Translations under genes and position numbers: made by a program
The notes under the pieces: model-generated
What the model saw: the letters and a program-made list of their open reading frames with translations, nothing else
Told to the model about the DNA's origin: nothing
Database searches by the model: none
Source of the DNA: Candidatus Cloacimonadota bacterium
GTDB taxonomy: Bacteria; Cloacimonadota; Cloacimonadia; G963667145
Reading direction: 5' to 3'
Length of the DNA: 64,000 nucleotides
Assembly: GCA_963667255.1 (NCBI GenBank)
Contig: OY762940.1
Location: 896,001-960,000 of the forward strand
Shown here: positions 5,125 through 25,520 of the stretch, one piece after another
Layout of the letters: every line of letters starts with the position of its first letter
Position numbering within the stretch: position 1 is the first letter of the stretch

Positions 5125-7086
5125 TTGATGATAAAAAAGTTGCTTTTTATATTATTGACTTTAGTGATTTATTTCGCTATTTCTTGTACATGCAATAGCA
5201 ATCCTTTTACTCCTTATGAAATAACTGCAACGGATAGTCTTTCCGTTACCTTAGTTTCCCCTGCCAACGGAGCAACAAATCAAGATACAAGTGTGATATT
5301 GAGTTGGAGTGGAACTGCAGAAACTTATGATGTGTATTTAGGAACGGATTCCACCAGTCTTAGTAAAATTATAAGCACAGATAGCACAAATTGTATAAAG
5401 AGCGGACTAAGCAAAGGGACAACATATTTTTGGAGAGTGGTAGGTATAAGAGGCAGTGTGAGCGATACAAGTGTTATTAGGTTTTTTACCACAAAAATAA
5501 ATGTGTCTCTGATTTCTCCTACCAATGGAGCAACAAATCAGGACACAAGCGTAACATTGAATTGGAGTGGAACAGCTGAAACCTATGATGTGTATTTGGG
5601 AACTGATTCCACCAGTCTTAGTAAAATTATAAGCACAGATAGCACAAATTGTATAAAGAGCGGACTAAACAAAGGGACAACATATTTTTGGAGAGTGGTA
5701 GGTATAAGAGGCAGTGTGAGCGATACAAGTGTTATTAGGTTTTTTACCACAAAAATAGATGTGTCTCTGATTTCTCCTACCAATGGAGCAACAAATCAGG
5801 ACACAAGTGTAACATTGAATTGGAGTGGAACAGCTGAAACCTATGATGTGTATTTAGGAACGGATTCTTCTAGTCTTACTAAAATTTATAGTACCAATAG
5901 TACAAGTTATACGAAGAGCGGACTAAACAAAGGGACAAAGTATTATTGGAAAGTGGTAGGTAACAAAGGTAGCGTGAGCAGTGCAAGTGATGTTTGGAAT
6001 TTTACTACAAAAATAAGTGTTCTTCTAATTTCCCCTGCCAACGGAGCAACTGAACAACCGACCGATTTGACTTTTAGTTGGAGTGGAACAGCAGAAACCT
6101 ATGATGTGTATTTGGGAACTGATTCCACCAGTCTTAGTAAAATAGCAAGCAACTTAACAGCAACCACTTATACAAAAAACGGGTTAGATGAGATAACTAC
6201 TTATTATTGGAAGGTAGTGGGCACAAAAGGCAGTGTGAGTGGGACAAGTGGTGAGAGAAAATTTATTACTAAGCTTAATTTGAATTTGGAAATGGTGGCG
6301 GTGGACTCAGGTACTTTCCAAATGGGGCTTGGCACATTAGTTGCCACTGATACTGTGCATTCTGTAACCATAAGTAAATCTTTTGAGATATGCAAATATG
6401 AGATAACCAATGATCAAGTGGTAAGAGTATATAATTTGGCAAAGAAGAAATTAAGTGGTCTGAGTTTTAGTTCTACAGCTGTGACTTATAATAGTAATAA
6501 AATATTGGATTTAGAAGCGGGTGCGTGCTACATTGAATATGCATCTTCTTCTGATACATTATATGTAGAAGAGGGCAAAGGGAAATATCCAGTAACTGTA
6601 ATCACTTGGGAAGGAGCAACTTCTTTTGCAGAGTTTATGAATGCTTTATCAGGAACTGACAAATATAGATTACCTACTGAGGCTGAGTGGGAATTTGCAG
6701 CCAGAGGTGGTAAAAGTAGCAATGGTTATATTTATGCTGGTAGCAATACCATAGGTGATGTAGCTTGGTATTTAGACCATTCTTCCACTACTGATAATAC
6801 TTCTAGCAATTGGAAAACTAATCCCGTGGGGAAAAAAAATCCTAACGAACTGGGGATTTATGATATGAGTGGAAATGTTGGTGAATTGTGTTCAGATAGG
6901 AAAGGAAATTATAGCAGTAGCAGTCAAACCGACCCTACAGGAGCGAGTAGTGGCACTGAGCGTGTTTATCGTGGTGGTTCATGGTGTCATGGCGAAGATA
7001 TTTGCAGAGTTTATTGTCGTTCTTATACTTTTAGTTCTACGAGTTCTAGCACTATGATAGGGTTTCGTATAGCTCGTAGTAAGTAG
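5125..7086 (+). CDS. Surface lipoprotein with four tandem Fn3-like repeats and a C-terminal FGE-sulfatase (C-type lectin-fold) domain
   Basis: Lipobox AISC; 86-aa repeats; KYEIT, RLPTEAEWEFAARGG, PNELGIYDMSGNV, RGGSW...GFR. Confidence 0.85.
   Translation: MMIKKLLFILLTLVIYFAISCTCNSNPFTPYEITATDSLSVTLVSPANGATNQDTSVILSWSGTAETYDVYLGTDSTSLSKIISTDSTNCIKSGLSKGTTYFWRVVGIRGSVSDTSVIRFFTTKINVSLISPTNGATNQDTSVTLNWSGTAETYDVYLGTDSTSLSKIISTDSTNCIKSGLNKGTTYFWRVVGIRGSVSDTSVIRFFTTKIDVSLISPTNGATNQDTSVTLNWSGTAETYDVYLGTDSSSLTKIYSTNSTSYTKSGLNKGTKYYWKVVGNKGSVSSASDVWNFTTKISVLLISPANGATEQPTDLTFSWSGTAETYDVYLGTDSTSLSKIASNLTATTYTKNGLDEITTYYWKVVGTKGSVSGTSGERKFITKLNLNLEMVAVDSGTFQMGLGTLVATDTVHSVTISKSFEICKYEITNDQVVRVYNLAKKKLSGLSFSSTAVTYNSNKILDLEAGACYIEYASSSDTLYVEEGKGKYPVTVITWEGATSFAEFMNALSGTDKYRLPTEAEWEFAARGGKSSNGYIYAGSNTIGDVAWYLDHSSTTDNTSSNWKTNPVGKKNPNELGIYDMSGNVGELCSDRKGNYSSSSQTDPTGASSGTERVYRGGSWCHGEDICRVYCRSYTFSSTSSSTMIGFRIARSK
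5245..6276 (+). repeat. Four intragenic tandem repeats of 258 bp (86 aa)
   Basis: Units start at about 5245, 5503, 5761 and 6019; long near-identical blocks at a 258-bp offset. Confidence 0.9.
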
Positions 7087-7163
7087 TCGGTTTTGTTTTC
7101 ATTGTGCGTTTTGGGAATGCTTGGAGAAAATTGACAATTACGCCTTGTATTATCAATTGTTTT

Positions 7164-8009
7164 TCACCATCTCTTGTGCATCCAAAACCACTGTTCAGGA
7201 TATTGTAAGATGTATTTTTCTAACGACTTATTTATTTTTTCGGTCAATTCAGGAATTTGTTCTTTGGTGTAGTCTCGACCGTCAAAAGGCTTTTCGGCGA
7301 TAATTTTAAACCCTTTTTCGGTGCGGACACAGAAAATCGGTTGGAGCATAGCACCCGCTTTGATGGCGAATTTCGCTGGACCTTGGAATACAGATGCGGG
7401 ATGTCCGAGCCAAGTTTGTTGGAGTCCAACCTTGCGAGCGTTTTGGTCAACCATGATGCCGATACCTTCATCGTTTTTTAGGGCTCGCAGAACATCTCGG
7501 AAAGCGGTTTCCAAAAAAATACTGGGAACACCGTTGGACAAGCGGATTTTCTCCACATATTTATCGATGTATGGATTTCGCATTCGTTTTGCCAAGCCGT
7601 TCACTTTGTAGCCAATGACCTTCGTCATATAACGCATTCCGATTTCCCAGTTGCCGATATGCATATTGGGGTAGAGGATGCCTCTGTGTTGGCTGTGAGA
7701 ATATTCCAGATTTTCCATTCCGACTACTTCAAAATTCTTCAACAATTTTTGTTGATTGCAAAAGAAAAATTCGTAAGCTAACAGACCGAGATTGTAATAA
7801 ATTTGGGTGCAAAGGGAATTTATCTCACTATCATTCTTATCGGGAAACACCATTTTTAGTTGCTGAACGACAACTTTTCTTCTTATTTTGGAGATAGTCA
7901 TTATTCTGGTTAGAGCGAATTTTTGCACAAATCCGGGCATTGGCAGAAAAATTGCTTTGAAAAGTTTAAATCCCGAATATTCTAAGATGTTTTTGAGATT
8001 ACTATTCAT
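7164..8009 (-). CDS. Lipid A late acyltransferase (LpxL/HtrB family)
   Basis: HIGNWE, MVDQ, YPEQWFWMHKRW; likely start MNSN at 8009. Confidence 0.88.
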   Translation of the reverse strand: MNSNLKNILEYSGFKLFKAIFLPMPGFVQKFALTRIMTISKIRRKVVVQQLKMVFPDKNDSEINSLCTQIYYNLGLLAYEFFFCNQQKLLKNFEVVGMENLEYSHSQHRGILYPNMHIGNWEIGMRYMTKVIGYKVNGLAKRMRNPYIDKYVEKIRLSNGVPSIFLETAFRDVLRALKNDEGIGIMVDQNARKVGLQQTWLGHPASVFQGPAKFAIKAGAMLQPIFCVRTEKGFKIIAEKPFDGRDYTKEQIPELTEKINKSLEKYILQYPEQWFWMHKRW

Positions 8010-8778
8010 AGTAGGTTTCGATCCTTTTATACCAACCGGAGAGCCATCTTTGTTCATGAGGCGACATTTTTACTCTGCGTTTGAGAACATATTTGGCTGC
8101 ATCGGCAAAATCGTGAGCGGGAGAGTCTGTCAGATTTTCCATCTTCTCCAGCACTTGTAGCAGACCCCAGTGGTAACCGTTGCAAGACTCTAGAGCGTTA
8201 AGACCTTCTCCTTTGAAATTGACATAATCCAGCATGGCGTAAATTCCGTTGGCTGTTGTAGCGAGTTCGTTGATATTTTTTTTCACTTTCTCTTTGTGGT
8301 CGCTTGCATTTATGATTTTGGGGAGAGCCTCTTGCAATCGAAGAACAAGAAATTTGGTTTGCTCTTCTTGGGTATTTTGCAAAAATCTGTAAAGTTCCAC
8401 GCGTTTGGAGCTGTCGAAACCGGAATTGAACTGTTCTTCCGAGTTCCAAGGGCAAGTAGTAGAGCTGTTTAGCCAACTTGGCAGGCAAAAGTTGGTGCTT
8501 TCCAAATAGGAAATGAATTTGGGGAAACTCTCCACGAATTTTTTCGTCTCAGCATCAGGATACCAAATAAAATGAGCAATTCCCAGAGATAAGAATTTTT
8601 CGTTGGCGTTCCATTGCAATAGGTTTGAATAGTGGAGATTTGTCTCATTTTTGAAAATCTTGTGTGCCAAAATTTCTGCTTGCGACTTAGGGATTTCTAT
8701 TTCTATTGAGTTTAACAAGTTGAAAAAAGAGGCAAGTATAAAAATTATTAAAAATTTGGTATTTTTATTTTCTTTCAT
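8002..8778 (-). CDS. Secreted hypothetical protein
   Basis: Signal peptide; SLGIAHFIWYP, DYVNFKGEG, WGLLQVL, RWLSGWYKR; overlaps the lpxL-like start. Confidence 0.7.
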   Translation of the reverse strand: MKENKNTKFLIIFILASFFNLLNSIEIEIPKSQAEILAHKIFKNETNLHYSNLLQWNANEKFLSLGIAHFIWYPDAETKKFVESFPKFISYLESTNFCLPSWLNSSTTCPWNSEEQFNSGFDSSKRVELYRFLQNTQEEQTKFLVLRLQEALPKIINASDHKEKVKKNINELATTANGIYAMLDYVNFKGEGLNALESCNGYHWGLLQVLEKMENLTDSPAHDFADAAKYVLKRRVKMSPHEQRWLSGWYKRIETYYE

Positions 8779-8936
8779 ATTATTCTTTGATTTATAAGCC
8801 GTTAGCTTTACTAATTATTCAACAAACAAAATTTTTTGCTAGTTGAGAGCAAGTAATTTTTGTTTTTTTTTGACATTTTGTTCAAAAACAAGAAATTGGC
8901 TATGGTTTGTAAGAAAAAATAAAAGTAGGTTCAGAG

Positions 8937-9524
8937 TTGATAAGAGTAATAGAGTCTTGTTTTGTTAAGAGTGCCGTTAAGGTGACTGATTATCCCGTCG
9001 TTATTTGCAAAGAGGTGGCTTTTGTGGGCAAATCCAATGTGGGTAAATCTTCGATGATTAACGCTATATTGGGAAGAAAATTGTTGGCTAAGATTTCGTC
9101 TCGCCCTGGGAAAACGCAGTTGATTAATTTTTTTAGTGTTACCACAAAAGACGATGAGCAGGAGATGAAAGGCGAGTTGAGTTTTGTGGATTTGCCTGGT
9201 TATGGGTTTGCCAAGGTTCCGCTAAAAGAGAAAGAAAATTGGCGGGGAATGATACAAGCATATTTGACCAATCGCCCGCAATTGCTGGGTGTTTTGCTGT
9301 TGGTGGATATTCGGCACAAGTTCGATTATAAAGACCAGTTGATGCAGGAGATGCTGGAGGCTAACGGCATCAACTATACGCTGGTGGCGACGAAGAGTGA
9401 CAAAATCGCTAATAGTAAATTGAAGAGTGTGATTAAAGAAAATTTTCCGTTCAAAGTTCTTCCTTTTTCTGCTAAAAACAATAAGGGGATTTCTGAGGTT
9501 TTGCGGTGGATAAACGAATTGTAA
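8937..9524 (+). CDS. engB: Ribosome biogenesis GTPase EngB/YihA
   Basis: GKSNVGKSS, PGKTQLINFF, VDLPGYGFAK, TKSD. Confidence 0.95.
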   Translation: MIRVIESCFVKSAVKVTDYPVVICKEVAFVGKSNVGKSSMINAILGRKLLAKISSRPGKTQLINFFSVTTKDDEQEMKGELSFVDLPGYGFAKVPLKEKENWRGMIQAYLTNRPQLLGVLLLVDIRHKFDYKDQLMQEMLEANGINYTLVATKSDKIANSKLKSVIKENFPFKVLPFSAKNNKGISEVLRWINEL

Positions 9525-10531
9525 TTTTGGCTTTTGCGTGTTGTTTCTCTTTTTGTTTTGCTGGAGAAGAGCAAAAACTGGATGTGTTGGTGAAGAAGAT
9601 AGAGGCTCGAAAACGCGAAATTAATGAAATTAAATCCGAGCAGACTGAATATTCCCAAAAGATTAGTGATTATGGGAATCGTCTGAAAAATGCAAAATCT
9701 CGACTGACTGTGTTGGAAAAGAGATATTCCGGAAAGAGCAAAGAGAAGGCGAAGATTAAGACAGAAATTGAGCAAGTTAAGAAGGAAATTGCGGACATCA
9801 ATGCTCTGTATCTATTGGCTTTTATTCGGCTTTATGAGGCGGAATACATAGATGAGGAGCCGATGAATTCGCAGGTGCTCAGTTATTTTGTTCAGTCGTC
9901 TTCCAACAAGGTGGAGATGTATAACGAGAAAAATCTCAAACTTCAAAACAGCACGGTCGACATAAATAGGCAGATTAGGGAGTTGGAAGAGAAGAAAGAC
10001 AAAGAGGTGAAGAATATTAAGTTTTCTCAATATGTGACTTCTGTTGCGGGTGCTTTCCTCGTGGAGAGTCGCAGTAAAGAGAAGAAAATCAGTAAAGAGT
10101 TGGCTTTTTTGCAGGAAGAGCGGGATAAATTGGAAAAGATAATTGCTAATCTGAAATTGGATAAAATGCGAACGGGATACTCGTATAAATTCAGCCAGTC
10201 AAATATTTTGTGGCCTGTGCGAGGGGAGATTGTCGATAACGATTTGCGTAGGAGTGGTCTTGATATTAGCACAAAGGACAAATATTGCAAAGCGGTAGAT
10301 AATGGTATTGTGGCGGAATATGACAAAATTGGGAATAAAAAATGCTTGGTAGTTGACCATCGGAACGGTTATATAAGTGTCTATGTTTATAAAGGCAATA
10401 CATTGGCTGAATTGCGGAGTGAAGTGAAGCGGGGACAAAATCTTGCTTTGTTGCAGTCGGATTTGATTCATTTTGAGCTGGTGAAAGACAAGAAAATTTC
10501 CGTTAATCCTCGGGTTTTTTTTGTTAAGTGA
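9506..10531 (+). CDS. EnvC-like murein hydrolase activator (coiled coil plus degenerate M23 domain)
   Basis: Signal peptide, long coiled coil, WPVRG, SGLDI, VVDH.NGY.SVY, IHFE; Zn-ligand histidines incomplete. Confidence 0.75.
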   Translation: MDKRIVILAFACCFSFCFAGEEQKLDVLVKKIEARKREINEIKSEQTEYSQKISDYGNRLKNAKSRLTVLEKRYSGKSKEKAKIKTEIEQVKKEIADINALYLLAFIRLYEAEYIDEEPMNSQVLSYFVQSSSNKVEMYNEKNLKLQNSTVDINRQIRELEEKKDKEVKNIKFSQYVTSVAGAFLVESRSKEKKISKELAFLQEERDKLEKIIANLKLDKMRTGYSYKFSQSNILWPVRGEIVDNDLRRSGLDISTKDKYCKAVDNGIVAEYDKIGNKKCLVVDHRNGYISVYVYKGNTLAELRSEVKRGQNLALLQSDLIHFELVKDKKISVNPRVFFVK

Positions 10532-11091
10532 AAAGGATGTCAGGAATAAATCTGCATTTCACAGGCTTGATGTTCGGTGTAGGAGCTTCTGTGGATGACG
10601 AGGTTTCGCTGGAGAAAATCAATAGGCTCAAGCAACGACCACAAAGCAAATCTTTCATCGTTCTTTTGGAGAGTTTGCAGAAATTGAGCAAATATGTGGA
10701 AGTTGACAGCAAATTGTCAGCGTTTTTGGGGAAATTTTGGCCAGGTCCACTGACTGTTGTTTTAGCTTGCAAAAATCTGCCACATTTGAGTCAAAACGGT
10801 TGCGTTGCTTTTCGAGTTCCAATAGACGAATTTTTGCGAAGTAAGTTAAATGCTGGGGAGATTGTTAGCACCAGTGTGAATTGTTCGGGTGAAGAACCTC
10901 TTGTGGATGTGGATGTGATATTGAGTAAATATAGCAACTGGTTTGATGAGAATTGGGTGCCGAGCGGAGTAACAACGGCGAAGGGGACTCCATCGACCAT
11001 TGTGAAAATTGAAGGAGAAGAGTTGGTTTGTTTGAGAGAGGGTGCTTTGGATTTTGCAGCTGTCAGAAGAGAGTGGACAAATGTTAAGTAG
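10528..11091 (+). CDS. tsaC: L-threonylcarbamoyladenylate synthase (TsaC/YrdC)
   Basis: KQRP..K, FWPGPLTVV, VAFRVP, STSVN.SG, PSTIV, LREG. Confidence 0.85.
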   Translation: MKRMSGINLHFTGLMFGVGASVDDEVSLEKINRLKQRPQSKSFIVLLESLQKLSKYVEVDSKLSAFLGKFWPGPLTVVLACKNLPHLSQNGCVAFRVPIDEFLRSKLNAGEIVSTSVNCSGEEPLVDVDVILSKYSNWFDENWVPSGVTTAKGTPSTIVKIEGEELVCLREGALDFAAVRREWTNVK

Positions 11092-12025
11092 TTTGTTGAA
11101 ATATAAGAAGATAGGGATTTTGACTCATTCTAATCCTGACCCTGATGCTTTGGGTTCTTGTTTTGCTATGCAGATGATTTTGGGCAAAGAGAGATGCGAT
11201 GTGGTTTTGGAGTTTGGTTTGACCAGACCTCTTTTTGCGGAGTTTGGTGCGGTTGTGTTGGCAGGCGATGATTTGCATTACGATGCTCTTTTGGTGTTGG
11301 ACGCTCACCAGTCCAAGAGGTTGGGATTGTTGGAGGAATTTGTTGAGAATTTTGCCAGAGATATTTTTATTATCGACCACCATCGTGTAGGTGAGTGCAA
11401 AATTCCTACAATGGCGGAACTCATTGACCCAACTGCGGTTAGCACCGGAATTTTGGTTTTTGAACTGTGTTCGTCTTTCACTTTGCATTGGGATGAGGAA
11501 GCACGAGAAAAGTTTGCCCGAGCTATCTATTACACGATTTTGGGCGATACCGACGGTTTCCAAAATCGCAATATTGATGCAAGATGTTTTTCTGTTTGTG
11601 CGGAATTGGTAAAGTTTGGATTGAAAGCCGGTTTAGCTTTTGAAAAATTCTATTGTCAGAAAAGTTTGAACGATTTCAAATATATGGCAGAGATTTATGA
11701 GTCAATCCAAGAGTTTGAGCAGGGGAAAATAGTTTTTGCTTTTAGTAGTTTGGAGTTGCAAAATCGGCTTGGCTATGTCTATCGGGGGCTTCCGCAGATG
11801 ATGGGGGAGCTGAAAAAGTCTGCAAACTATGAGATAATTGTCATTTTCAAAGAGAGAGAAGATAATTTGTATAAACTTAGTTTTCGCTCCAAGTCGATTG
11901 ATGTCCAGTCTGTTTGCAAAAAATACGGCGGAGGCGGTCATTTATTGGCTTCCGGTTGCGAGATAGCGGGGAGTTTGGAAGATACAAAAAGGCAGATATT
12001 GGAAGTATGCAAGAGCCTTCTTTGA
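11081..12025 (+). CDS. nrnA: DHH/DHHA1 phosphoesterase (NrnA-like)
   Basis: HSNPDPDALGS, IDHH, GDTDGF, SFRS, GGGGH..ASG; upstream of truB. Confidence 0.85.
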   Translation: MLSSLLKYKKIGILTHSNPDPDALGSCFAMQMILGKERCDVVLEFGLTRPLFAEFGAVVLAGDDLHYDALLVLDAHQSKRLGLLEEFVENFARDIFIIDHHRVGECKIPTMAELIDPTAVSTGILVFELCSSFTLHWDEEAREKFARAIYYTILGDTDGFQNRNIDARCFSVCAELVKFGLKAGLAFEKFYCQKSLNDFKYMAEIYESIQEFEQGKIVFAFSSLELQNRLGYVYRGLPQMMGELKKSANYEIIVIFKEREDNLYKLSFRSKSIDVQSVCKKYGGGGHLLASGCEIAGSLEDTKRQILEVCKSLL

Positions 12026-12867
12026 GCGGTGTTCTTTTGGTAGATAAACCCGCAGGAATAAGCTCTTTTGGGGTGATAGCGAGACTGCGGAAAATTTTGA
12101 AAATCAAGAAGATTGGGCATTGCGGGACTTTGGACAATTTTGCTACGGGAGTTTTGATTATATTGATTGGCAAGGCAACTCGTTTGGCGAGGTTTGTGTC
12201 AAATCAGGACAAGGTTTATGAGGCGACGATTTTGTTTGGGGAGAAGACCAATACCGCCGATATTACCGGAGAAATAGTTGAAACTGGAGGTCTTCCGTCT
12301 GATTTACCGACAGATTTTGAGGGGAAAGTTTTGGCAATCTCTTCGCAAATTCCACCTATCTTTTCGGCAATAAAAGTCGAGGGGAAAAGAGCTTATGCTC
12401 TTGCTCGTGATGGTAAAGAGATTGAGATGAAGCCTCGGGAAATCAAAATTTTTGAGTTCAAAGTTGGCAGTTTTGATAAGCAACGGTTGAATTACACGGC
12501 GAGAGTTTCCAAAGGCACATACATAAGAACTTTGAGCGAAGATATTGCGGGGATGTTGGGCACTGTGGGAACGACAGAAAATTTGCGACGAACAGAGTGT
12601 GCTGGATTTGGCATAGAGAAGTGCGTAACTATTGATGATGGAACAAGATATGAAGTGATTAGAGATAGAATTTTGCCCGCTGATGTTTTGCTGAAAGATT
12701 TTCCTGAAATGACTCTGACGCAGGAAGAGTATGTGTGTTTTAAAAATGGTAATTTTATTGAGAAAAAAAGTGATAAAAATGGTTTTACACGAATGTATTA
12801 CGAACAATTATTTGTTGGTGTGTCGTCCGTTGAACAGGAGATGGTAAAACCGCAGATAGTTTTTTAA
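12007..12867 (+). CDS. truB: tRNA pseudouridine(55) synthase
   Basis: VDKPAG.SS, GHCGTLD..ATGVL, SAIKVEGKRAY, SKGTYIR. Confidence 0.95.
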   Translation: MQEPSLSGVLLVDKPAGISSFGVIARLRKILKIKKIGHCGTLDNFATGVLIILIGKATRLARFVSNQDKVYEATILFGEKTNTADITGEIVETGGLPSDLPTDFEGKVLAISSQIPPIFSAIKVEGKRAYALARDGKEIEMKPREIKIFEFKVGSFDKQRLNYTARVSKGTYIRTLSEDIAGMLGTVGTTENLRRTECAGFGIEKCVTIDDGTRYEVIRDRILPADVLLKDFPEMTLTQEEYVCFKNGNFIEKKSDKNGFTRMYYEQLFVGVSSVEQEMVKPQIVF

Positions 12868-12868
12868 A

Positions 12869-15235
12869 ATGGTAAGTTTTATGAATAGATTGGTAAGAGT
12901 TTTATTTATTGTTGTTTTTTCTTTTAGTTGCTTGTGTGGAGCAGGTGTTGAGAGGGATATTAGCGAAGCTTTTAATACCGAGGCAAAGCGAACTGAATGG
13001 TGGAACGGTCTTGAATATCAGTGGAAGTTGGCTTTTAATAAACTTCTTGGTTACGGGAAAAGTGTAAGGAAACCGGAAGATGTGCGATTGGAAGGTTTGT
13101 TGTGCCGTAAAGCTCTTTTGCTATACAGCTCTGAAATCACCAATCTATCCGGTGTGAAAAATCTCACACATATAGAAAATCTCAGTTGCTCCTACAATAA
13201 GATTACTAATATTCAAGGGTTAAAAAATCTTACTAATCTGAAAATATTGAAACTTAGCGACAACCGAATTAAATCTTTGGAAATTTTGAAAAATCTAAAG
13301 GATTTGGAATATTTGCGAGTTGATTTTAACGATTTGCAGGATTTGAAGGGGTTGGAGGAGTTATCAAAACTTAATCGGGTGTATGCAGACAATAATTTTA
13401 TCTCTTCGCTTGCTCCTTTGGCTGATAAGCCGGAGTTGGAAGAACTTTATATAAATGATAATAGTATTGTCTCTCTTCTTCCTCTGAAAAATAACACAAA
13501 ATTAAAAATGTTACAGGCAAGTAATAATCAACTTCAAAATATAGATGGATTGTCTTCTCTTGAGAATTTGGAGAAAGTTTATATTTTTAATAATAATTTG
13601 GTGAGTTTGGAAGGTGTCCAAAATTTGAGAAAATTAGATATTTTTGCTTATTCGGAAAATAGTGAGATATTGCCTGATGAAGAAAAAGATAAAGTGAGAG
13701 ACTTGTTTGCTAAAAAGAAAAAATTTAGGGTTAGCATTGCCAGTGCTTCGGTTTCTATTTTAATTTTTGGTCTTGTTATTGTATTTTTGGTGAAATTGAT
13801 TTTACGGATAAGAGTTAACCGAAAGAGAAGAAGAGAGTTTTTGCGTTTGCATAAACTGTTTTTGGACAAGACGGCAGGATATTTTGATAATGATGCCCGT
13901 CTCTATCAGTGGTGGGAAAATCTTAACCATCAGTGGCGAAGAGTGTTTAATGTAGAGTTGGATAACGGAGCGTCTTTATTTGTGCCGAAACCTTCCGATT
14001 TACGAAAAATTTTAACCATTACTTTTCTTGAGATTAATGTTGAAGATTTGAGTGATTTGTCAGGATTGAATAACTGCACGGAATTGAGATACTTGAGATT
14101 TTACAATGAGAAACAAAAATTTTTAGATTTATTTTCAAACATTGAATTTCTAAATAGATTTCCTAAACTGGAGAAGCTTAGGTTTTCCACCGGTAAGATT
14201 AGGAAAATCAAAAATTTTGCAAAGTTGAATGAAAAATTTAGGGTTGCTATTCCCGAAAATGAATCGGATTTTGTTAAGAGCGGTAGTATTATTGAATTAC
14301 CTTGTGAGAGAAGGTTACGATATAAGTATCCGATAGTGGCAATAGGGAATTTTGAGGGGTTGCATTTAGGGCACGCCAAGATTTTGAACAGACTTTATTC
14401 TCGGGCTCAAGACACTGGTGGAGAAGCACTTATTCTTACATACAAGGTGCACACAAGAGAGCATTTTTTGAAACTTGCCAATAAACCTATAGCACCTTAT
14501 ATGGTTTTGGACAAAAAACATAAAGAAAATTTGTTGTTTCATAAATTTGGAGTGCATTCTATTTTGTATTTAGATTTTGAACAAGGTCTTTCCGAGTTGC
14601 CGGCTGAGGAGTTTTTTAAGACTATTTTGGTTGATAAGTTGCATATTAGGGAGATAATTTGTGGATACGATACTCGATTTGGCAAGGGACGAGAGGGAGA
14701 CTATAAATTGCTTTTGAAACTGTCGGAACCTTATAAAATCAGAGTTAGACTTGTAGAGCCTTTGTTGGTTGGCGGGAAGATTGTGCGGAGTGAGTTGATA
14801 AGGGATATGATTAAAAACGGAGAGATTGCCGGAATTAAGAATTTTCTCTCGCGTCCTTATTCCATATCAGGAACAGTGATGGAAGGGAAGAAAATTGGTG
14901 GAGTCTTGGGATTCCCGACACTCAATGTGAAGCCCATACAAGAGTATAAACTTTATCCGCCCAAGGGAGTTTATATCACGCATACTTTTATTGGTGGTAT
15001 AGGATATTATGGGCTTACCAATATTGGATTTGCTCCGACTATTAGAGACAGTGAAAAAACAGAAACAATTGAAAACTATCTTTATAAATTCAAGGGTAAA
15101 GTCTATGGGCAAGAGGTTAATGTTGTTTTTCTAAAATTTTTAAGAGACGAAAAGAAGTTTGCTTCTCGCAAAGAATTGGTGGAGCAGATTAAAATAGATT
15201 TGGAGAAATTAAAGCGGTATATAAGGGTTCATTAA
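12869..15235 (+). CDS. ribF: Fusion of signal peptide, leucine-rich repeats, TM helix and bifunctional FAD synthetase/riboflavin kinase
   Basis: 22-aa LRRs; TM at about 13730-13810; C-terminal AIGNFEGLHLGH, GYDTRFG, GFPTLN, PKGVY, NIGFAPT, FLRDEKKF; truB-ribF synteny. Confidence 0.88.
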   Translation: MVSFMNRLVRVLFIVVFSFSCLCGAGVERDISEAFNTEAKRTEWWNGLEYQWKLAFNKLLGYGKSVRKPEDVRLEGLLCRKALLLYSSEITNLSGVKNLTHIENLSCSYNKITNIQGLKNLTNLKILKLSDNRIKSLEILKNLKDLEYLRVDFNDLQDLKGLEELSKLNRVYADNNFISSLAPLADKPELEELYINDNSIVSLLPLKNNTKLKMLQASNNQLQNIDGLSSLENLEKVYIFNNNLVSLEGVQNLRKLDIFAYSENSEILPDEEKDKVRDLFAKKKKFRVSIASASVSILIFGLVIVFLVKLILRIRVNRKRRREFLRLHKLFLDKTAGYFDNDARLYQWWENLNHQWRRVFNVELDNGASLFVPKPSDLRKILTITFLEINVEDLSDLSGLNNCTELRYLRFYNEKQKFLDLFSNIEFLNRFPKLEKLRFSTGKIRKIKNFAKLNEKFRVAIPENESDFVKSGSIIELPCERRLRYKYPIVAIGNFEGLHLGHAKILNRLYSRAQDTGGEALILTYKVHTREHFLKLANKPIAPYMVLDKKHKENLLFHKFGVHSILYLDFEQGLSELPAEEFFKTILVDKLHIREIICGYDTRFGKGREGDYKLLLKLSEPYKIRVRLVEPLLVGGKIVRSELIRDMIKNGEIAGIKNFLSRPYSISGTVMEGKKIGGVLGFPTLNVKPIQEYKLYPPKGVYITHTFIGGIGYYGLTNIGFAPTIRDSEKTETIENYLYKFKGKVYGQEVNVVFLKFLRDEKKFASRKELVEQIKIDLEKLKRYIRVH

Positions 15236-15236
15236 T

Positions 15237-15602
15237 ATGAAAATCAAAAAATTATTAGAGATACTTGATGGGGAATTGCTTAGTGATGAAAAGCATTTGG
15301 AGTATGAAGTGGATTACGGTTTGGCTTCTGATCTTATTAGTGACCTTTTGATGTGTGCTCTGTATCCGGCTGCTCTTTTTACGGGGCTTGTCAATCATCA
15401 AATAGTAAGAGTAGCGGAAATGATTGAGTTGCAGGCGATTATCTTTGTGCGAGGCAAGAAGCCAAGAGAGGAAATTTTGCAAATGGCTGCTGATCATGAT
15501 ATGCCGGTTATCTGCACAGAAAAGTCTCTTTATGCGGCATGTGGTTTGGCTTATCAGGGAGGATTGGAGACATCTCCAATAAAATTGAGTATCAATGAAT
15601 AG
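15237..15602 (+). CDS. DRTGG-domain protein
   Basis: ASDLISDLL, TGLVN.Q..R.AEM, IIFVRGKKP, ACG..Y..G. Confidence 0.8.
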   Translation: MKIKKLLEILDGELLSDEKHLEYEVDYGLASDLISDLLMCALYPAALFTGLVNHQIVRVAEMIELQAIIFVRGKKPREEILQMAADHDMPVICTEKSLYAACGLAYQGGLETSPIKLSINE

Positions 15603-16074
15603 CTTTGTTTATAGCAAGGATAATAGTTTAAATCCTGATTCGTTTATGATAGAACTCGGTCAGCCGATGATGAAATACGATTTTTCCATCAAATCTAAAG
15701 ATTTTATCTCTTCCGGAGAGGCGACCACTAAGGTAAAGAAACAACTCAAGGAGCTTGGTATTGATGCTGTTCCACTTAGAAGGTTTGCAGTGGCAAGCTA
15801 TGAGGCGGAGATTAATGTTGTGGCACATTCAATCGGCGGAAAGATGGAAGTTGGTATTTATTCCGAATTTGTTTATTTGAAATTTATAGATAATGGACCG
15901 GGAATTGTGGATATAGAGAAGGCTATGCAACCAGGGTATTCTACCGCTGATGATTTGGCTCGTTCTATGGGATTTGGAGCTGGGATGGGATTGCCCAATA
16001 TCAAAGATAATGTAGATATTATGCGGTTATTTTCCGATGGTTACACCAAATTGGAATTGGTGGTTTTTTATTAG
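15595..16074 (+). CDS. Anti-sigma-factor-like Ser/Thr kinase (GHKL ATPase)
   Basis: YEAEIN...H, DNGPGI, GYSTA, GFGAGMGLPN. Confidence 0.85.
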   Translation: MNSFVYSKDNSLNPDSFMIELGQPMMKYDFSIKSKDFISSGEATTKVKKQLKELGIDAVPLRRFAVASYEAEINVVAHSIGGKMEVGIYSEFVYLKFIDNGPGIVDIEKAMQPGYSTADDLARSMGFGAGMGLPNIKDNVDIMRLFSDGYTKLELVVFY

Positions 16075-16087
16075 AGGATGATTTGTT

Positions 16088-17695
16088 ATGAAAGGCAAAG
16101 AGGCTGTTCAAGAGATTAAAGAAAAGTGCATTGGTTGCACAAGGTGTGTTAGGGCTTGTCCTGTTTCGGCTATTCGTCTTAGAAATGGGAAAATAGAGAG
16201 AAATAGTGATATATGTATTAGCTGTGGTCATTGTATCAAGATTTGTCCCGTTGGAGCTATTGAGAGCGTTTTCGATGAGTTTGAAGAGATTTTGGACAAT
16301 CCCAAATTCAAGTATAGAGTTGCTCTTTTGTCTAATGTTTTCATCGGTCAATTCCCTCGAAAAGTCAGTTATGATATGGCTGTTGATGCTTTGTTAAAAT
16401 TGGGATTTGATGAGGTCATAGATGAGAATATGATTACGGGAATCATGGCTCCTATTTTTGCAGAGAAGCTGAAAAAGACTAAAATCAGACCTTTGATTTC
16501 TTCTAATTGCCCTGCAATTGTTCGTCTTATTCAGACAAATTATCCGTCGTTGCTTTCTCATATTTTGCCTTTGGAATCTTCAGTTTGCATTTTAAATGTT
16601 TATTACAGAGAATATTTGGTAGGGCTTAAAGGTTTGTCTCCGGAAGAGATAGGGATTTTTTATATCGCTCCGTGCTCTGCCCAAGTTAATGCTCAAAAAA
16701 ACCCTCTTGGGCATGATAAGTCTCTGCTTGATGGTTCTCTTGCTATGAAAGATGTTTACAACAAGATTATGAATATTTGCTTTTATCAGGAGCAAGAAAA
16801 TTTAGAGAAAAAGAAGGATAATGAGAATCTTGTTAAGCATGAGAATTGGGGAATTTATATTTCGGAAGGAAATCAGATAAAAAAAAGCAATCTCAAAACT
16901 TTGGCTGTCAGTGGGATAAAAGGGGCAAAAGATATTTTATCCAAAATAGAGGGTGGACAGCTGGAATATTTTGATTATGTGGTCTTGCGTAGTTGCACCA
17001 ATGGTTGTGTCGGTGGAGACTTGAATGTTGCTAATCCATTCCTTGCTACCAATCGAATCAGCTCTTCCAATATTGAGTTTAAGCCGATAGAGAAAGAGCT
17101 ATTTTACAAGCTTTTTAAAGAGAAAAAATTTAGTTTTCAAAAAGAAATAAAGCCTTTGGAGCATAATGTTGACAACAGTTCCATAAAAGGTAGGATAATA
17201 AAGATGAAAAGGTATGGTGATATTCAAAAACTTTTGCCCGGGAAAAATTGTGGTATCTGTGGTTGTCCGACTTGTGCTGATTTGGCGAAGGAAATTGTGG
17301 AAGGGAAGGCTAAATTTTCCGATTGTGTTTTTAACATTAAAGAGAGGAAGAAAATTTCTCTACTGGAGGTTTTGGAATATATCAAGGGCAAAGTTATTAC
17401 AAAAGAACAGGATTTATCCGAAATTTGTGTAGAGAACGCTTATGTTGGTGATTTGTTGTCCGATGTTATGGCTTCTGCTGGAGGATGTCAAGTTTGGATT
17501 ACTATTATGCAACATCAAAACTCTGTTGCCGTGGCTTCTCTTTTGGATATCAGGGCAATTATTTTTGCCAAGAATAAGATGCCGGACGAACGCTCCATTG
17601 AAAAAGCTAATGAAGAGGGGATAGTGATGATAGGTAGTTCGTATAATTCGTTTAAAATTTCAGGTATTTTGCACAATTTGATATCGGTAAAGTAA
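16088..17695 (+). CDS. Putative sensory [FeFe]-hydrogenase-like protein: 2[4Fe-4S], H-cluster domain, Fe-S domain and fused DRTGG
   Basis: Two CxxCxxCxxxCP motifs; ISSNCPA, APCSAQ, SCTNGCVGG; LPGKNCGICGCPTC; C-terminal YVGDLLSDVM...VAVA. Confidence 0.8.
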   Translation: MKGKEAVQEIKEKCIGCTRCVRACPVSAIRLRNGKIERNSDICISCGHCIKICPVGAIESVFDEFEEILDNPKFKYRVALLSNVFIGQFPRKVSYDMAVDALLKLGFDEVIDENMITGIMAPIFAEKLKKTKIRPLISSNCPAIVRLIQTNYPSLLSHILPLESSVCILNVYYREYLVGLKGLSPEEIGIFYIAPCSAQVNAQKNPLGHDKSLLDGSLAMKDVYNKIMNICFYQEQENLEKKKDNENLVKHENWGIYISEGNQIKKSNLKTLAVSGIKGAKDILSKIEGGQLEYFDYVVLRSCTNGCVGGDLNVANPFLATNRISSSNIEFKPIEKELFYKLFKEKKFSFQKEIKPLEHNVDNSSIKGRIIKMKRYGDIQKLLPGKNCGICGCPTCADLAKEIVEGKAKFSDCVFNIKERKKISLLEVLEYIKGKVITKEQDLSEICVENAYVGDLLSDVMASAGGCQVWITIMQHQNSVAVASLLDIRAIIFAKNKMPDERSIEKANEEGIVMIGSSYNSFKISGILHNLISVK

Positions 17696-18409
17696 ATGTT
17701 ATGTAAAGCTGATTTGCATACACATTCTGTGTTGTCTCCGTGTGGAGATTATTCTATGTCTCCGTCTCTTTTGTTTGAGAAAGCCAAGAAACTTGGGTTC
17801 AAGATGGTGGCTATTACGGAGCACAACTCCTTGTCCAATGCGTTGGCTTATTCCAAAATTGCCGACAAATTTGGTATTCATTACATTTTCGGTGTGGAGA
17901 TTCAAGTAGATTTGGAGATTCATGTTCTTGCTTATTTCCCCGATTGGAGTGCTGCTAAGTTGTTTAATAGTGAACTTTATGAGGTTCTGCCTAATATAAA
18001 AAATAATTATGGACTTTTTGGGGATCAGGTTTTGATAGACGAAAACGAAATGGTTATCGGATTTGAGGACAAATTGCTTTTAAATTCCCTTTCTTGGGAC
18101 TTGCAAACAGCGTATAATAAAGTGAAAAAGTATGGTGGTTTGTTCGTTGCGGCACATGTTGATGCGGAAAGTTATAGCATCAAATCGCAACTTGGTTTTC
18201 TTCCTGATGAAATTATGTTTGACGGTTTAGAGGTTGTTGGGGATATTTGTGATTGGAATAACAATAACCTTCCGATTGTCAAAAACTCTGATGCTCATTA
18301 TCTAAAAGATTTTGGCTGTAGATATACGGAGTATGAAATGAGTGATTTGAGTTTTGAGAGTTTGAAAAAATCGTTATTGGGTAGAAAGTTCAAAATAAAA
18401 TCTAATTAA
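17696..18409 (+). CDS. PHP-domain phosphoesterase
   Basis: DLHTHSVLSPC, AITEHN, HVLAY, AHVD, NSDAH. Confidence 0.88.
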   Translation: MLCKADLHTHSVLSPCGDYSMSPSLLFEKAKKLGFKMVAITEHNSLSNALAYSKIADKFGIHYIFGVEIQVDLEIHVLAYFPDWSAAKLFNSELYEVLPNIKNNYGLFGDQVLIDENEMVIGFEDKLLLNSLSWDLQTAYNKVKKYGGLFVAAHVDAESYSIKSQLGFLPDEIMFDGLEVVGDICDWNNNNLPIVKNSDAHYLKDFGCRYTEYEMSDLSFESLKKSLLGRKFKIKSN

Positions 18410-18414
18410 GGGGG

Positions 18415-18891
18415 ATGTTAATGGATACTTGTGATAGTCCTTTGTATGCTGAACTCAAGAAAATCATTGATTCCAAAAAAGATTTGCGAGATCCTTTGAT
18501 TGAGGTGTTGAGAGAGGCACAATTGTTGTTTGGGTATTTGCCCAAAGAGGTATTGGTGTTTATTGCCAGAGAGATGAAGTTGCCTATAAACAAAATTTAT
18601 GGGGTTGTTACTTTTTACAATTTCTTTTCTCTCAAGCCTCGTGGAAAGTATGTTATCAATGTTTGCACGGGAACTGCGTGCTATGTAAAAGGTGCTGCTC
18701 GTGTGGTGGAGATGTTTGAGGAATCTTTGGGAATCAAATTGGGCGAGACGACGCCTGATAAGAAGTTTACTCTCTCGTCTGTGAGATGTGTGGGTGCGTG
18801 TTCTTTGGCTCCAGTCGTGGTGATAGGCGATGAGACTTATGGTAGAGTTGCTACCAAAGAGCAGATAAAGAAAATATTGGAGAATTTCTAA
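18415..18891 (+). CDS. hydC: NuoE/HydC-type [2Fe-2S] subunit, copy 1
   Basis: GVVTFYNFF, VCTGTACYVKG, RCVGACSLAP. Confidence 0.9.
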   Translation: MLMDTCDSPLYAELKKIIDSKKDLRDPLIEVLREAQLLFGYLPKEVLVFIAREMKLPINKIYGVVTFYNFFSLKPRGKYVINVCTGTACYVKGAARVVEMFEESLGIKLGETTPDKKFTLSSVRCVGACSLAPVVVIGDETYGRVATKEQIKKILENF

Positions 18892-18906
18892 ATTTTTGGT
18901 TGAGAG

Positions 18907-19455
18907 ATGGAAGATATTTCTTTACATTTATTGGATATTTTACAAAATTCGGTTAGTGCTGGTGCGACTCTGATAACTTGTCGTTTCGTGAAGATTGCAG
19001 ACAGATTGCAATTGTCCATTGAGGATAATGGGCGAGGGATGGACGAAGAGACGGTGAATGCTGCGTTAGACCCTTTTTATACGAGCAAGAGTTTTCGCAA
19101 AAAGAAAATTGGTTTGGGTATTCCGCTATTTGCTCAGAGTGCCAAGTTGTCGGGTGGAGATTTCAGTTTGGAGTCGAAAGTTGGGCAAGGAACACGGATT
19201 AAAGCTGAATTTGTGGTTTCCAATATAGATGCTTTGCCTCTCGGGGATATTTCGCTATCTTTGGTAAACTGCATAGTTGCTCATCAAAGTGTTGATTTTG
19301 TTGTAGAGATTGTGTGTGATACGGAAGAGGAGTTTAGTTTGGATACACGGGAGATAAAGAAAGAGATGGAAGGAATTTCTTTGAATGAACCAGTAGTTAG
19401 AAAATACTTAGAAGAAGTAGTTAGTCAACAAGTATTGAAATTGGAGGATAGATGA
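18907..19455 (+). CDS. Stand-alone HATPase_c (histidine-kinase-like ATPase)
   Basis: LDILQNS, EDNGRGM, DPFYTSK, GLGIPL. Confidence 0.85.
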   Translation: MEDISLHLLDILQNSVSAGATLITCRFVKIADRLQLSIEDNGRGMDEETVNAALDPFYTSKSFRKKKIGLGIPLFAQSAKLSGGDFSLESKVGQGTRIKAEFVVSNIDALPLGDISLSLVNCIVAHQSVDFVVEIVCDTEEEFSLDTREIKKEMEGISLNEPVVRKYLEEVVSQQVLKLEDR

Positions 19456-19805
19456 AATCTTTGGCAGATTTAAGAAAATTGAAAGAAGAAGTTAAGAAGA
19501 AAATGAATTTGAGAGATTCTGATTATAAGTATAAAATAGTGGTGGGTATGGGGACATCGGGGATTGCGATGGGTGCCAGAGAAGTGATGAAAACTTTTTT
19601 GGATGAGATAAGTAAAAGAAGTATTAGTGGAGTCATTGTTACCCAGAGCGGAGAAAAGGGTGCTTCCAGTATGGAGCCGGTTGTGGATGTGATAGAGACT
19701 GAGGGGAAGACGGTTACTTATTGTCAGATGAATGCCGAGAAAGCGAGAAAAGTGGTTAATGAGCATATTGTGAATGGGACGATTGTTAACGAGTACTTAA
19801 TATAG
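19452..19805 (+). CDS. Thioredoxin-like ferredoxin (HydD/HndB-like) lacking the cluster cysteines
   Basis: VGMGTSGIAMGA...QSGEKGASSMEP...EHIVNG; located between the kinase and hydB. Confidence 0.75.
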   Translation: MKSLADLRKLKEEVKKKMNLRDSDYKYKIVVGMGTSGIAMGAREVMKTFLDEISKRSISGVIVTQSGEKGASSMEPVVDVIETEGKTVTYCQMNAEKARKVVNEHIVNGTIVNEYLI

Positions 19806-19816
19806 AGGATCGAGGT

Positions 19817-21640
19817 ATGTATAAAAGAGTCGATATCTTATTATGTTTTGGCTCGGGGTGTGTGTCAGCCGGAGCTCGAGGGATAAAAGAGGAACTTCAA
19901 CGCTTAGTTCGTGAAAATAAAATAGATAATGAAGTCAATATTATAGAGACGGGCTGTATGGGTCCGTGTGATTACGGTCCACTGATGCTGATATATCCCG
20001 AGGGAGTTTTTTACAAAAAGCTTACTCCGGAAGATATGAAAGAGGTAGTTGAGGAACATTTGATAAAAGGTAGGGTTGTTGAGCGACTCCTGATGCACGA
20101 TGATACTGTGGCTGATAGGGCTATCAGAAATGTGGAAGATGTGCCTTTTTACAAAAATCAAACGAAAGTTGCTTTGAAATATTGTGGCTACCTGAATCCT
20201 GAATCTTTGGAAGAGTATGTGGCGGTAGATGGATATTCCGCTTTGGGCAAGGTTTTGGAAGAGATGAAACCAGAAGATGTGATTAACGAAATTAAAATTT
20301 CCGGCATTCGTGGTCGTGGTGGAGGAGGATTTCCCACTCATCTCAAATGGAGTTTTGCCCGTTCCGCCAAAAGTGAAGATGGTGTAAAATACATGATTTG
20401 CAATGGCGACGAAGGTGACCCGGGAGCTTTTATGGACAGGTCGCTTTTGGAGGGAGACCCGCATAGAGTATTGGAAGGAATGATGATAGGGGCTTACGCT
20501 ATCGGAGCCAGCAAAGGTTATTTCTACATCAGAGCCGAATATCCGTTGGCTATCGAGAGGATAAAACTCGCTATCAGCAAAGCTCGAGAATACGGATTAA
20601 TTGGCGATAATATTTTGGGTAGTGACTTCTGTTTTGATGCTGAAGTGCGGACAGGTGCTGGAGCTTTTGTTTGTGGAGAGGAGACAGCTCTTATCTCATC
20701 TATCGAGGGCAAGAGAGGTCATCCGAAGCCGAAGCCACCGTTTCCTGCGAACAAAGGATTGTGGGACAAACCGAGCAATATAAACAATGTTGAGACTTTT
20801 GCTAATATTTCATCGATAATCTTGAATGGTGGACAGTGGTTTGCCTCTATGGGCACGGAGAAGAGCAAAGGGACAAAGGTGTTCGCTCTGACCGGAGATG
20901 TGAAAAATACCGGTTTGGTGGAAGTGCCGATGGGGATCACGATTGGAGAGTTGATAGACAATGTCGGTGGTGGTATCAGCAAAGGTAATTTCAAAGCCGT
21001 GCAACTTGGTGGTCCGTCCGGAGGATGCTTGACCAAAGAGCATTGGGATGTGCCGATTGATTACGATTCGCTCACTGCCAAAGGGGCAATGATGGGCTCT
21101 GGCGGTGTGATAGTGATGAACGACTCTAAATGTATGGTGAATGTGGCGAAATTCTTCTTGGAATTTTCTCTGGAGGAGTCTTGTGGCAAGTGCTCTCCGT
21201 GCAGAGTTGGGCTGAAGCATATGCACAATATTTTGGAGAAGATTACCAGCGGGCAAGGTTGTATGGAGGATTTGGATGAGCTGGAAAGTGTTGGCAAGTT
21301 GATAAAAGCGACTTCTTTGTGCGGACTGGGACAATCTGCACCAAATCCTGTTCTTTCTACAATGAAATATTTCCGAAACGAATACGAAGCACACATCAAG
21401 GATAAAAGGTGCGATGCTTTGGTTTGCACGGAGTTATTGCATTTCAATATTAACAAAGATAAATGTGTGGGATGTTCGTTGTGTGCCAAAAAATGTCCTG
21501 TTAATTGCATAAGCGGGTCAAGGGAAGAGAAATTTGACATTGCCCAAGATGCCTGTATCAAGTGTGGAAACTGCCATGATGTTTGTCCGGTAAAGGCTGT
21601 GGAAAAATTGGCTGGTAAGGTTGAGTGTGAGGAAGAGTAG
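19817..21640 (+). CDS. hydB: NuoF/HydB flavoprotein subunit, copy 1 (full length, C-terminal 2[4Fe-4S])
   Basis: C..SGC..GCMGPC; GRGGGGFPT; DEGDPGAFMDR; GAGAFVCGEE; GGPSGG; SCGKCSPCR; two C-terminal CxxCxxCxxxCP. Confidence 0.92.
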   Translation: MYKRVDILLCFGSGCVSAGARGIKEELQRLVRENKIDNEVNIIETGCMGPCDYGPLMLIYPEGVFYKKLTPEDMKEVVEEHLIKGRVVERLLMHDDTVADRAIRNVEDVPFYKNQTKVALKYCGYLNPESLEEYVAVDGYSALGKVLEEMKPEDVINEIKISGIRGRGGGGFPTHLKWSFARSAKSEDGVKYMICNGDEGDPGAFMDRSLLEGDPHRVLEGMMIGAYAIGASKGYFYIRAEYPLAIERIKLAISKAREYGLIGDNILGSDFCFDAEVRTGAGAFVCGEETALISSIEGKRGHPKPKPPFPANKGLWDKPSNINNVETFANISSIILNGGQWFASMGTEKSKGTKVFALTGDVKNTGLVEVPMGITIGELIDNVGGGISKGNFKAVQLGGPSGGCLTKEHWDVPIDYDSLTAKGAMMGSGGVIVMNDSKCMVNVAKFFLEFSLEESCGKCSPCRVGLKHMHNILEKITSGQGCMEDLDELESVGKLIKATSLCGLGQSAPNPVLSTMKYFRNEYEAHIKDKRCDALVCTELLHFNINKDKCVGCSLCAKKCPVNCISGSREEKFDIAQDACIKCGNCHDVCPVKAVEKLAGKVECEEE

Positions 21641-21666
21641 GGGATTAAAAAGAAAAGGAGATTATT

Positions 21667-23644: not shown

Positions 23645-23645
23645 A

Positions 23646-25394: not shown

Positions 25395-25408
25395 AATGAG
25401 ATTATTTC

Positions 25409-25443
25409 AAAGCACTTCCGCTAGAATGGTGGGAGTGCTTTTT
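25409..25443 (+). terminator. Intrinsic terminator ending the hydrogenase operon
   Basis: aaagcacttccgc...gtgggagtgcttt plus T run. Confidence 0.8.
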
Positions 25444-25459
25444 ATGAAAGTTGTTGAAA

Positions 25460-25516: not shown

Positions 25517-25520
25517 AAAA

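What the first reader, a model, noticed from the sequence alone, without database searches (positions are those of the whole stretch)
12869..15235. Receptor-like FAD synthetase: extracytoplasmic LRR, TM helix and cytoplasmic RibF in one ORF
Seen: one uninterrupted 788-aa ORF with a signal peptide, about eight 22-residue internalin/SDS22-type LRRs, and one hydrophobic helix (about 13730-13810) followed by a basic stop-transfer (RVNRKRRRE). After the helix come a second short LRR block and a complete RibF from about 14290 (HLGH adenylyltransferase motif, GFPTLN kinase motif). The LRR cap motif occurs on both sides of the membrane (EWWNGLEYQWKLAFN and QWWENLNHQWRRVFN). Known: RibF is normally a soluble protein of about 310 aa after truB, and this ORF occupies exactly that position, so it is probably the housekeeping copy. 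Inference: type-I membrane topology like an LRR receptor-enzyme, tethering or regulating FMN/FAD synthesis by an outside signal. It ends 1 nt before the flavin-requiring hydrogenase cluster.
Basis: partly seen in the sequence, partly recalled or inferred. Interest (0 to 1): 0.85.

Follow-up and report, generated by a model that had tools for sequence, protein, structure and literature searches.

The report
Membrane-anchored FAD synthetase with LRR ectodomain
In a small group of uncultured Cloacimonadota bacteria, the only gene found for the enzyme that makes the flavin cofactors FMN and FAD is fused behind a leucine-rich-repeat domain and a predicted membrane helix, which likely tethers flavin synthesis to the inner membrane through an unknown partner on the other side.

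Summary
The fusion is real. One ORF encodes a signal-like peptide, nine LRR units, a hydrophobic helix, a second capped LRR block and a complete RibF. It is the genome's only RibF match. The same architecture is in 6 of 6 genomes of the genus and in three metagenomic relatives (39-46% identical); no other of 232 Cloacimonadota genomes searched showed it. Both LRR blocks are under purifying selection (dN/dS 0.05-0.07, neighbours 0.07-0.15), no internal start is conserved, and AlphaFold packs the inner LRR onto the adenylyltransferase domain (pTM 0.85). The organism has an outer membrane, so the 'outside' is likely the periplasm, and the hydrogenase link is not universal. New details: the clade's adenylyltransferase has P58T, D25E and a free T165 position; one LRR-less RibF nests inside the clade; an unrelated lineage has the reverse RibF-helix-LRR fusion. 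Best reading: a membrane-tethered housekeeping RibF whose periplasmic LRR binds an envelope partner (0.45). A passenger fusion (0.27) and true receptor control (0.18) remain open; no partner or activity is shown. The scan reported this fusion before in another genome (e1-750334). My paper searches found no description.

The parts
12007..12867 (+). truB, the usual upstream neighbour of ribF
   Evidence: Pfam TruB_N, TIGR00431; 286-codon form matches G001
12881..15235 (+). Fused gene, 784 aa from the likely start (788 aa from ATG 12869)
12881..12943 (+). Predicted Sec signal peptide (residues 5-25 of the 788-aa numbering)
   Evidence: basic start plus hydrophobic core in 8 of 8 homologues; sequence variable (1 of 21 invariant); no predictor run
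12971..13105 (+). First WW-type N-cap (EWWNGLEYQWKLAFN)
   Evidence: 14 of 45 columns invariant in 8 homologues; 43% identical, with first repeats, to the cap of genus LRR protein P0011
13106..13654 (+). Nine LRR units, predicted periplasmic; invariant exposed Y109, K128, D131, R150, D155, R170, F177
   Evidence: fold match to InlA and SDS22; dN/dS 0.05
13730..13834 (+). Predicted transmembrane helix (288-312) and basic stop-transfer (313-322)
   Evidence: KD 19-mer 2.82; hydrophobic in 8 of 8 homologues with 0 of 42 invariant columns; low pLDDT here
13874..14248 (+). Second WW-cap with 3-4 irregular LRRs, predicted cytoplasmic and packed on the adenylyltransferase domain
   Evidence: pTM 0.85; dN/dS 0.07
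14288..14854 (+). RibF FMN adenylyltransferase module; H28, H31, D125, S164, R168 kept, D25E, P58T, S163R, T165E changed (C. ammoniagenes numbering)
14846..15220 (+). RibF riboflavin kinase module (PTLN, catalytic E735 = E268)
15237..15602 (+). DRTGG-like gene opening the hydrogenase region; conserved neighbour in the genus, not in L044

Best explanation
This gene encodes the cell's only detected riboflavin kinase/FAD synthetase as the C-terminal end of a predicted single-pass inner-membrane protein, whose conserved N-terminal LRR domain likely binds an unknown envelope partner in the periplasm and so would hold FMN/FAD synthesis at a fixed membrane site. Shown: in-frame fusion, sole copy, conservation of every module, purifying selection on both LRR blocks. 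Predicted: LRR out, RibF in; inner LRR docked rigidly on the adenylyltransferase. Inferred: an LRR gene of the lineage's WW-cap family entered between truB and ribF and replaced ribF's start; the outer LRR is a protein-binding scaffold; the likely benefit is supply of FAD to export and periplasmic flavinylation (ApbE, RnfG) or to other membrane flavoproteins.
For: Fusion in 6 of 6 genus genomes and in P0008, P0099, L044 at 39-46%; fused RibFs form one clade (100/100). dN/dS G000 vs G001: outer LRR 0.05, inner LRR 0.07, FMNAT 0.05, RFK 0.06; six neighbours 0.07-0.15. No gap column in the outer cap and repeats across 8 proteins; 11 of 42 concave-side exposed positions invariant against 7 of 56 convex, and 10 against 0 when only charged or aromatic residues are counted (class chosen after seeing the data). 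Other LRR genes of this type are patchy: only the fusion matched in G000, G004, G005. Inner LRR plus FMNAT models as one unit, pLDDT 87.6, pTM 0.85. The genome makes riboflavin, has ApbE and an RnfG-like protein, and no second FAD synthase was found.
Against: No partner, localisation or activity is shown. P0122 (377 aa, no LRR) nests inside the fused clade, so the LRR part may be dispensable; P0098 is a 419-aa call lacking it too; neither DNA context could be read. Other Cloacimonadota manage with a plain RibF. Nothing but co-presence links the protein to ApbE or Rnf. Concave versus convex invariance overall is weak (p 0.07), and some invariant charges (E192, K213, E235) are ordinary for this repeat type. 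The N-side of the membrane helix is also basic (4-9 K/R against 6-10 on the C-side).
Confidence: 0.45

Rival explanations
1. Passenger fusion. An LRR membrane protein with its own envelope job became fused to ribF; once ribF lost its start the join could not easily be undone. Each half is selected for its own work and the membrane location of RibF is merely tolerated.
For: Explains purifying selection on all modules without coupling. P0122 suggests the LRR can be shed. A second, unrelated RibF-helix-LRR fusion looks like read-through into a neighbour's signal peptide, so such joins are tolerated. Small genomes of 1.5-1.6 Mb.
Against: Inner LRR is conserved without gaps and predicted to dock on the FMNAT domain; the junction is indel-poor across 39-46% divergent proteins; the gene sits at ribF's ancestral place.
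Confidence: 0.27
2. Receptor-enzyme. A periplasmic ligand binds the LRR, changes oligomer state or helix position, and the inner LRR passes this to the adenylyltransferase, switching FMN-to-FAD conversion.
For: Layout as in LRR receptor enzymes; one continuous helix 270-331 in the model; rigid inner LRR-FMNAT packing; clade-wide changes at P58 and T165, where PMC6829536 places P56/P58 at the flavin-pocket entrance and at a protomer contact, and PMC3509593 links T165 to a conformational step.
Against: The membrane segment has 0 of 42 invariant columns and varies in length, unlike a helix that must transmit a signal; P0122 has the same active-site changes without any LRR; no ligand or dimer is known.
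Confidence: 0.18
3. A soluble RibF is made by internal initiation or proteolysis and does the housekeeping work; the full-length form is minor.
For: RibF begins at its ancestral length near residue 474; some genomes have GTG/TTG with a Shine-Dalgarno-like stretch near there (3 of 6); P0098 is a short gene call.
Against: No ATG/GTG/TTG at that place in G000, codons at the ATT ATT site differ among the six genomes, and the region is modelled as ordered structure joined to the LRR.
Confidence: 0.05
4. The adenylyltransferase half has lost or changed its activity, so the protein is mainly a membrane-bound riboflavin kinase.
For: P58 is T in 10 of 10 fused-clade sequences and P in 43 of 43 others; T165 is E/R/K/N against S/T in 42 of 43. 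In C. ammoniagenes P58W, P56A/P58A and T165D abolish activity (PMC6829536, PMC3509593), and G000 has E at 165.
Against: H28, H31, H57, D125, F128, S164 and R168 are invariant; FMNAT dN/dS 0.05; no other FAD synthase found; T165A stays active (PMC3509593); T. maritima RibF also departs from the FxPHP motif.
Confidence: 0.04
5. Assembly or gene-calling artefact.
For: None beyond the oddity of the architecture.
Against: Same open frame in six genomes and three further metagenomic proteins; synonymous-biased divergence throughout.
Confidence: 0.01

Closest known systems
Bifunctional prokaryotic RibF / FAD synthetase (C. ammoniagenes 2x0k, T. maritima 1mrz)
   Same: FMNAT then RFK modules, catalytic residues, position after truB
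   Different: 470-residue N-terminal extension with predicted signal peptide, LRRs and membrane helix; P58T, D25E, variable T165
Internalin / SDS22-type LRR domains (InlA 1o6v, SDS22 6obn)
   Same: 22-residue repeats, about 30-35% identity, rmsd about 2 A over about 190 columns
   Different: WW-type helical cap, membrane helix and enzyme follow; internalin family scores far below cut-off (80.7 against 1600)
LRR receptor enzymes (plant LRR receptor kinases; recalled, no call)
   Same: Predicted signal peptide, LRR ectodomain, one helix, cytoplasmic catalytic domain
   Different: Output is a cofactor-making metabolic enzyme; an extra LRR lies on the inner side; no ligand, dimer or regulation shown
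Mammalian riboflavin kinase coupling TNFR1 to NADPH oxidase (passages in PMC11605425, citing earlier work)
   Same: A flavin-cofactor enzyme held at a membrane receptor to favour FAD loading of a membrane client
   Different: Non-covalent, eukaryotic, unrelated receptor; an analogy only
Reverse RibF-helix-LRR fusion P0013/P0250/P0251 (found here)
   Same: RibF, one hydrophobic helix and an LRR block in one chain
   Different: Opposite order, canonical active-site motifs, different LRR cap, RibF outside the Cloacimonadota clade; independent origin

Membership tests
Bifunctional RibF | FAD_syn and Flavokinase domains in that order, above cut-off | tested here: met
   TIGR00083 199.2 > 184.35; the PRK05627 models stay below their cut-offs (best 235.6 < 241)
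Bifunctional RibF | Catalytic H28, H31, N/D125, S164, T208, N210, E268 | tested here: met
   mapped on 2x0k; roles from PMC2573891, PMC3509593 passages
Bifunctional RibF | Consensus GxFDG, FxPHP and SS[TS] motifs | tested here: not met
   GNFEG, YKVHT, RSE in this protein; P58T in 10 of 10 clade members
Bifunctional RibF | Soluble protein of about 300-340 aa | tested here: not met
   784-788 aa with two hydrophobic segments
Bifunctional RibF | Converts riboflavin to FMN and FAD | not testable with these tools
   inferred from being the only copy found
Class 1 internalins | Family model score over the whole protein | tested here: not met
   InlA 80.7 against 1600, InlH 77.1 against 1050
LRR receptor-enzyme | Signal peptide, LRR ectodomain, single helix, cytoplasmic enzyme | tested here: inconclusive
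   fits hydropathy in 8 of 8; no topology predictor or experiment
LRR receptor-enzyme | Ligand-dependent change of enzyme activity | not testable with these tools
   no ligand known

The most novel reading that the evidence does not exclude
A bacterial LRR receptor whose output is cofactor synthesis: a periplasmic cue bound by the conserved concave patch is relayed through the membrane helix and an inner LRR to a rewired FMN adenylyltransferase, gating FAD supply to the cell's flavoenzymes; the separate reverse fusion would show that LRR-coupled membrane RibF evolved twice.
Probability: 0.18. Interest if true: 0.9.

Novelty: new variant of a known kind. Interest (0 to 1): 0.65.

Why it matters
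RibF is a well-studied enzyme treated as soluble. A lineage that makes its only copy as a single-pass membrane protein with a conserved periplasmic binding domain would show that FMN/FAD synthesis can be placed, and perhaps controlled, from across the membrane. How FAD is delivered to periplasmic ApbE is only partly known (PMC9973259 passages describe a Firmicutes exporter and speculate on targeted delivery); this protein gives a concrete handle: pull down the partner of the ectodomain. The natural P58T and T165E/R/K/N variants also test active-site rules drawn from C. ammoniagenes mutants.

Tried and rejected
Mis-assembly and internal start: rejected. Obligatory link to the hydrogenase cluster: rejected as general, since L044 has an SsuA-like gene downstream. 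A second FAD synthase: PF01467 gave three proteins that read as CoaD, NadD and an HldE/RfaE-like transferase (my reading of the sequences); PF01507 had no match over cut-off in 5 of 5 genomes. Riboflavin trapping after uptake was set aside because the genus has ribH and ribE; importers were not searched. MATE transporters exist but none was tied to FAD. Expression: no RNA holder listed. Rfam: 0 matches in 6000-26000; promoter and terminator counts near shuffled values. ESM Atlas gave only generic LRR clusters. The kinase module was poorly modelled in the full-length fold (pLDDT under 50 at 661-764, 7-row alignment), which says nothing about it. The genomic context of P0008, P0099, P0098, P0122 and P0013 could not be read. 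Paper searches for the architecture found nothing relevant (listings only); PMC8238504 holds none of the terms RibF, riboflavin kinase, leucine-rich or Cloacimon. The library lacks most subscription papers, and no supplements were read.

Full report
Observation. Window 12869-15235 is one open frame of 788 codons. It carries LRR_4 repeats, FAD_syn (489-641) and Flavokinase (660-784) above Pfam cut-offs and passes the TIGR00083 ribF cut-off. Only two stretches are hydrophobic: the N-terminus and residues 288-312, which is followed by a basic run. The likely start is the ATG at 12881, which aligns with the first Met of 7 of 7 other full-length homologues. The AlphaFold model has nine strands in the first LRR block, a long helix 270-331, a second capped LRR block and the RibF fold; the kinase part was low-confidence with only 7 rows. 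Foldseek matches are internalin A, SDS22 and C. ammoniagenes FAD synthetase.

Is it real and how far does it go? The window lies in a 1.59-Mb single-contig genome whose genus relatives are titled Candidatus Cloacimonadota. All 6 genomes of the genus carry the full fusion, 57-82% identical, in the same gene order from engB to the hydrogenase genes. In a phylum-wide search, 169 of 232 genomes matched an LRR-plus-FMNAT query; of the 150 matches listed, only these 6 included the LRR part in an open frame, and the 21 unlisted matches were the weakest. Outside these genomes there are P0008 (39%), P0099 (43%) and the partial L044 (46%). A profile search of 1.84 billion representatives listed only two full-length fusions among its best 150 hits. 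P0003, P0004, P0005, P0075 and P0077 are the genus genomes again, not further evidence. The fused RibF domains form one clade (100/100) inside the Cloacimonadota RibFs. Four class relatives inspected have a plain 309-315 aa ribF right after truB, so the LRR cassette entered at that junction. Both LRR modules begin with a WW cap also found in patchy secreted or lipoprotein-like LRR genes of the genus, the likely donor family.

Is the LRR part selected? Between G000 and G001, dN/dS is 0.05 for the outer LRR, 0.07 for the inner LRR, 0.05 for FMNAT and 0.06 for the kinase; signal and membrane segments are about 0.5 (many deeper pairs are saturated). Six neighbouring genes give 0.07-0.15. Across 8 full-length proteins the outer cap and repeats have no gap column and 28-31% invariant positions, like the enzyme modules (29-35%), while the membrane region has 0 of 42. 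Invariant exposed residues cluster on the concave side of repeats 2-5 (Y109, K128, D131, R150, D155, R170, F177): 11 of 42 concave against 7 of 56 convex positions (p 0.07), or 10 against 0 for charged and aromatic residues, a class I chose afterwards. I infer a binding surface. No in-frame start codon is conserved at the RibF boundary. A model of the inner LRR with FMNAT reached pLDDT 87.6 and pTM 0.85, which predicts a fixed packing.

The enzyme. It is the only RibF match in the genome, and no other FAD synthase was found. Mapped on 2x0k, H28, H31, H57, D125, F128, S164, R168 and the kinase T208, N210, E268 are kept. Three positions are changed in the clade: P58 is T in 10 of 10 (nine fusions plus the short call P0098) against P in 43 of 43 others; T165 is E, R, K or N against S/T in 42 of 43; D25 is E in 10 of 10 against D in 38 of 43 (the five E come mostly from a scan for that motif). 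PMC6829536 (passages) says P58 was conserved in all species it compared and that P58W and P56A/P58A abolish activity; PMC3509593 (passages, tables) shows T165D inactive and T165A active; PMC2573891 (passages) gives the consensus motifs. Since the module is under strong selection and has no visible back-up, I take it as active but remodelled; this is untested.

Cellular setting. The genome has an Omp85/BamA protein and a lipid A acyltransferase, so the outer LRR would lie in the periplasm. It makes riboflavin and has ApbE and an RnfG-like FMN-binding protein in an rnf-like cluster, which need exported FAD (general knowledge; PMC9973259 passages). This is co-presence only. The hydrogenase neighbour is conserved in the genus but not in L044.

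Results against a tight coupling. P0122, a 377-aa RibF without LRR, has the same active-site changes and nests inside the fused clade in a quick tree (SH-aLRT 96). P0098 is a 419-aa call that lacks the outer part. Either could be a real loss or a calling error; their DNA could not be read. The membrane helix is not conserved in sequence, which argues against precise signal transfer. A second fusion, RibF followed by a signal-like helix and LRRs, exists in three clusters of an unrelated lineage (P0013, P0250, P0251; 19, 4 and 5 members). It can be read as convergence on a membrane-held RibF or as proof that such joins are simply tolerated.

Mechanism. Most likely (0.45): a membrane-tethered housekeeping RibF whose periplasmic LRR binds an envelope partner and so fixes where FMN and FAD are made, plausibly next to export and flavinylation. 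Rivals: passenger fusion (0.27), ligand-controlled receptor-enzyme (0.18), soluble form by internal start or cleavage (0.05), altered or dead FMNAT (0.04), artefact (0.01). The binding partner could not be tested here.

Comparison and novelty. It is a RibF by domains, catalytic residues, position and descent, but not by size, predicted location or three motif positions. It is not an internalin. It is laid out like an LRR receptor enzyme (recalled family), but regulation is not shown. The nearest functional analogy is mammalian riboflavin kinase coupling TNFR1 to NADPH oxidase (PMC11605425 passages). Four searches of the paper library found no description of an LRR-membrane-RibF protein; subscription papers are mostly absent and no supplements were read. 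Verdict: real, lineage-specific, a new variant of a known enzyme with an open mechanism; interest 0.65.

Noticed in passing
P0013, P0250, P0251: Independent reverse fusion: canonical RibF, a signal-like hydrophobic helix followed by a conserved AQT site, then 5-6 LRRs ending in PCxCxF; 539-546 aa, three clusters. Lineage not determined.
   Followed up: partly
P0122: 377-aa RibF without LRR, with D25E and P58T, nested in the fused clade; possible secondary loss of the membrane part.
   Followed up: partly
P0098: 419-aa call close to G001's protein that starts inside the inner LRR; broken gene, contig edge or real truncation unknown.
   Followed up: no
L050:1118-11297 (G003): Tandem run of lipoprotein-like genes, four with LRR blocks of differing length, three of them with the same WW cap; not matched in G000, G004, G005.
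   Followed up: partly
   Followed up: partly
window 5125-7086: Lipoprotein-like ORF with near-identical fn3-like repeats of about 85 aa and a C-terminal FGE-sulfatase domain.
   Followed up: no
window 8002-8778 (-): 258-aa secreted-looking ORF with no Pfam match, conserved in all genus genomes checked.
   Followed up: no
L033:12964-14351 (G002): The flavin-binding hydrogenase subunit homologous to window 19817-21640 appears split into two frames in this genome; assembly error or frameshift.
   Followed up: no
L044:1864-2796: SsuA-like substrate-binding protein follows the fused gene in this more distant relative.
   Followed up: partly
G117:C3:17739-18254: ribF match lies in a 559-aa open frame without the LRR part; possibly another fusion or an overlap.
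   Followed up: no
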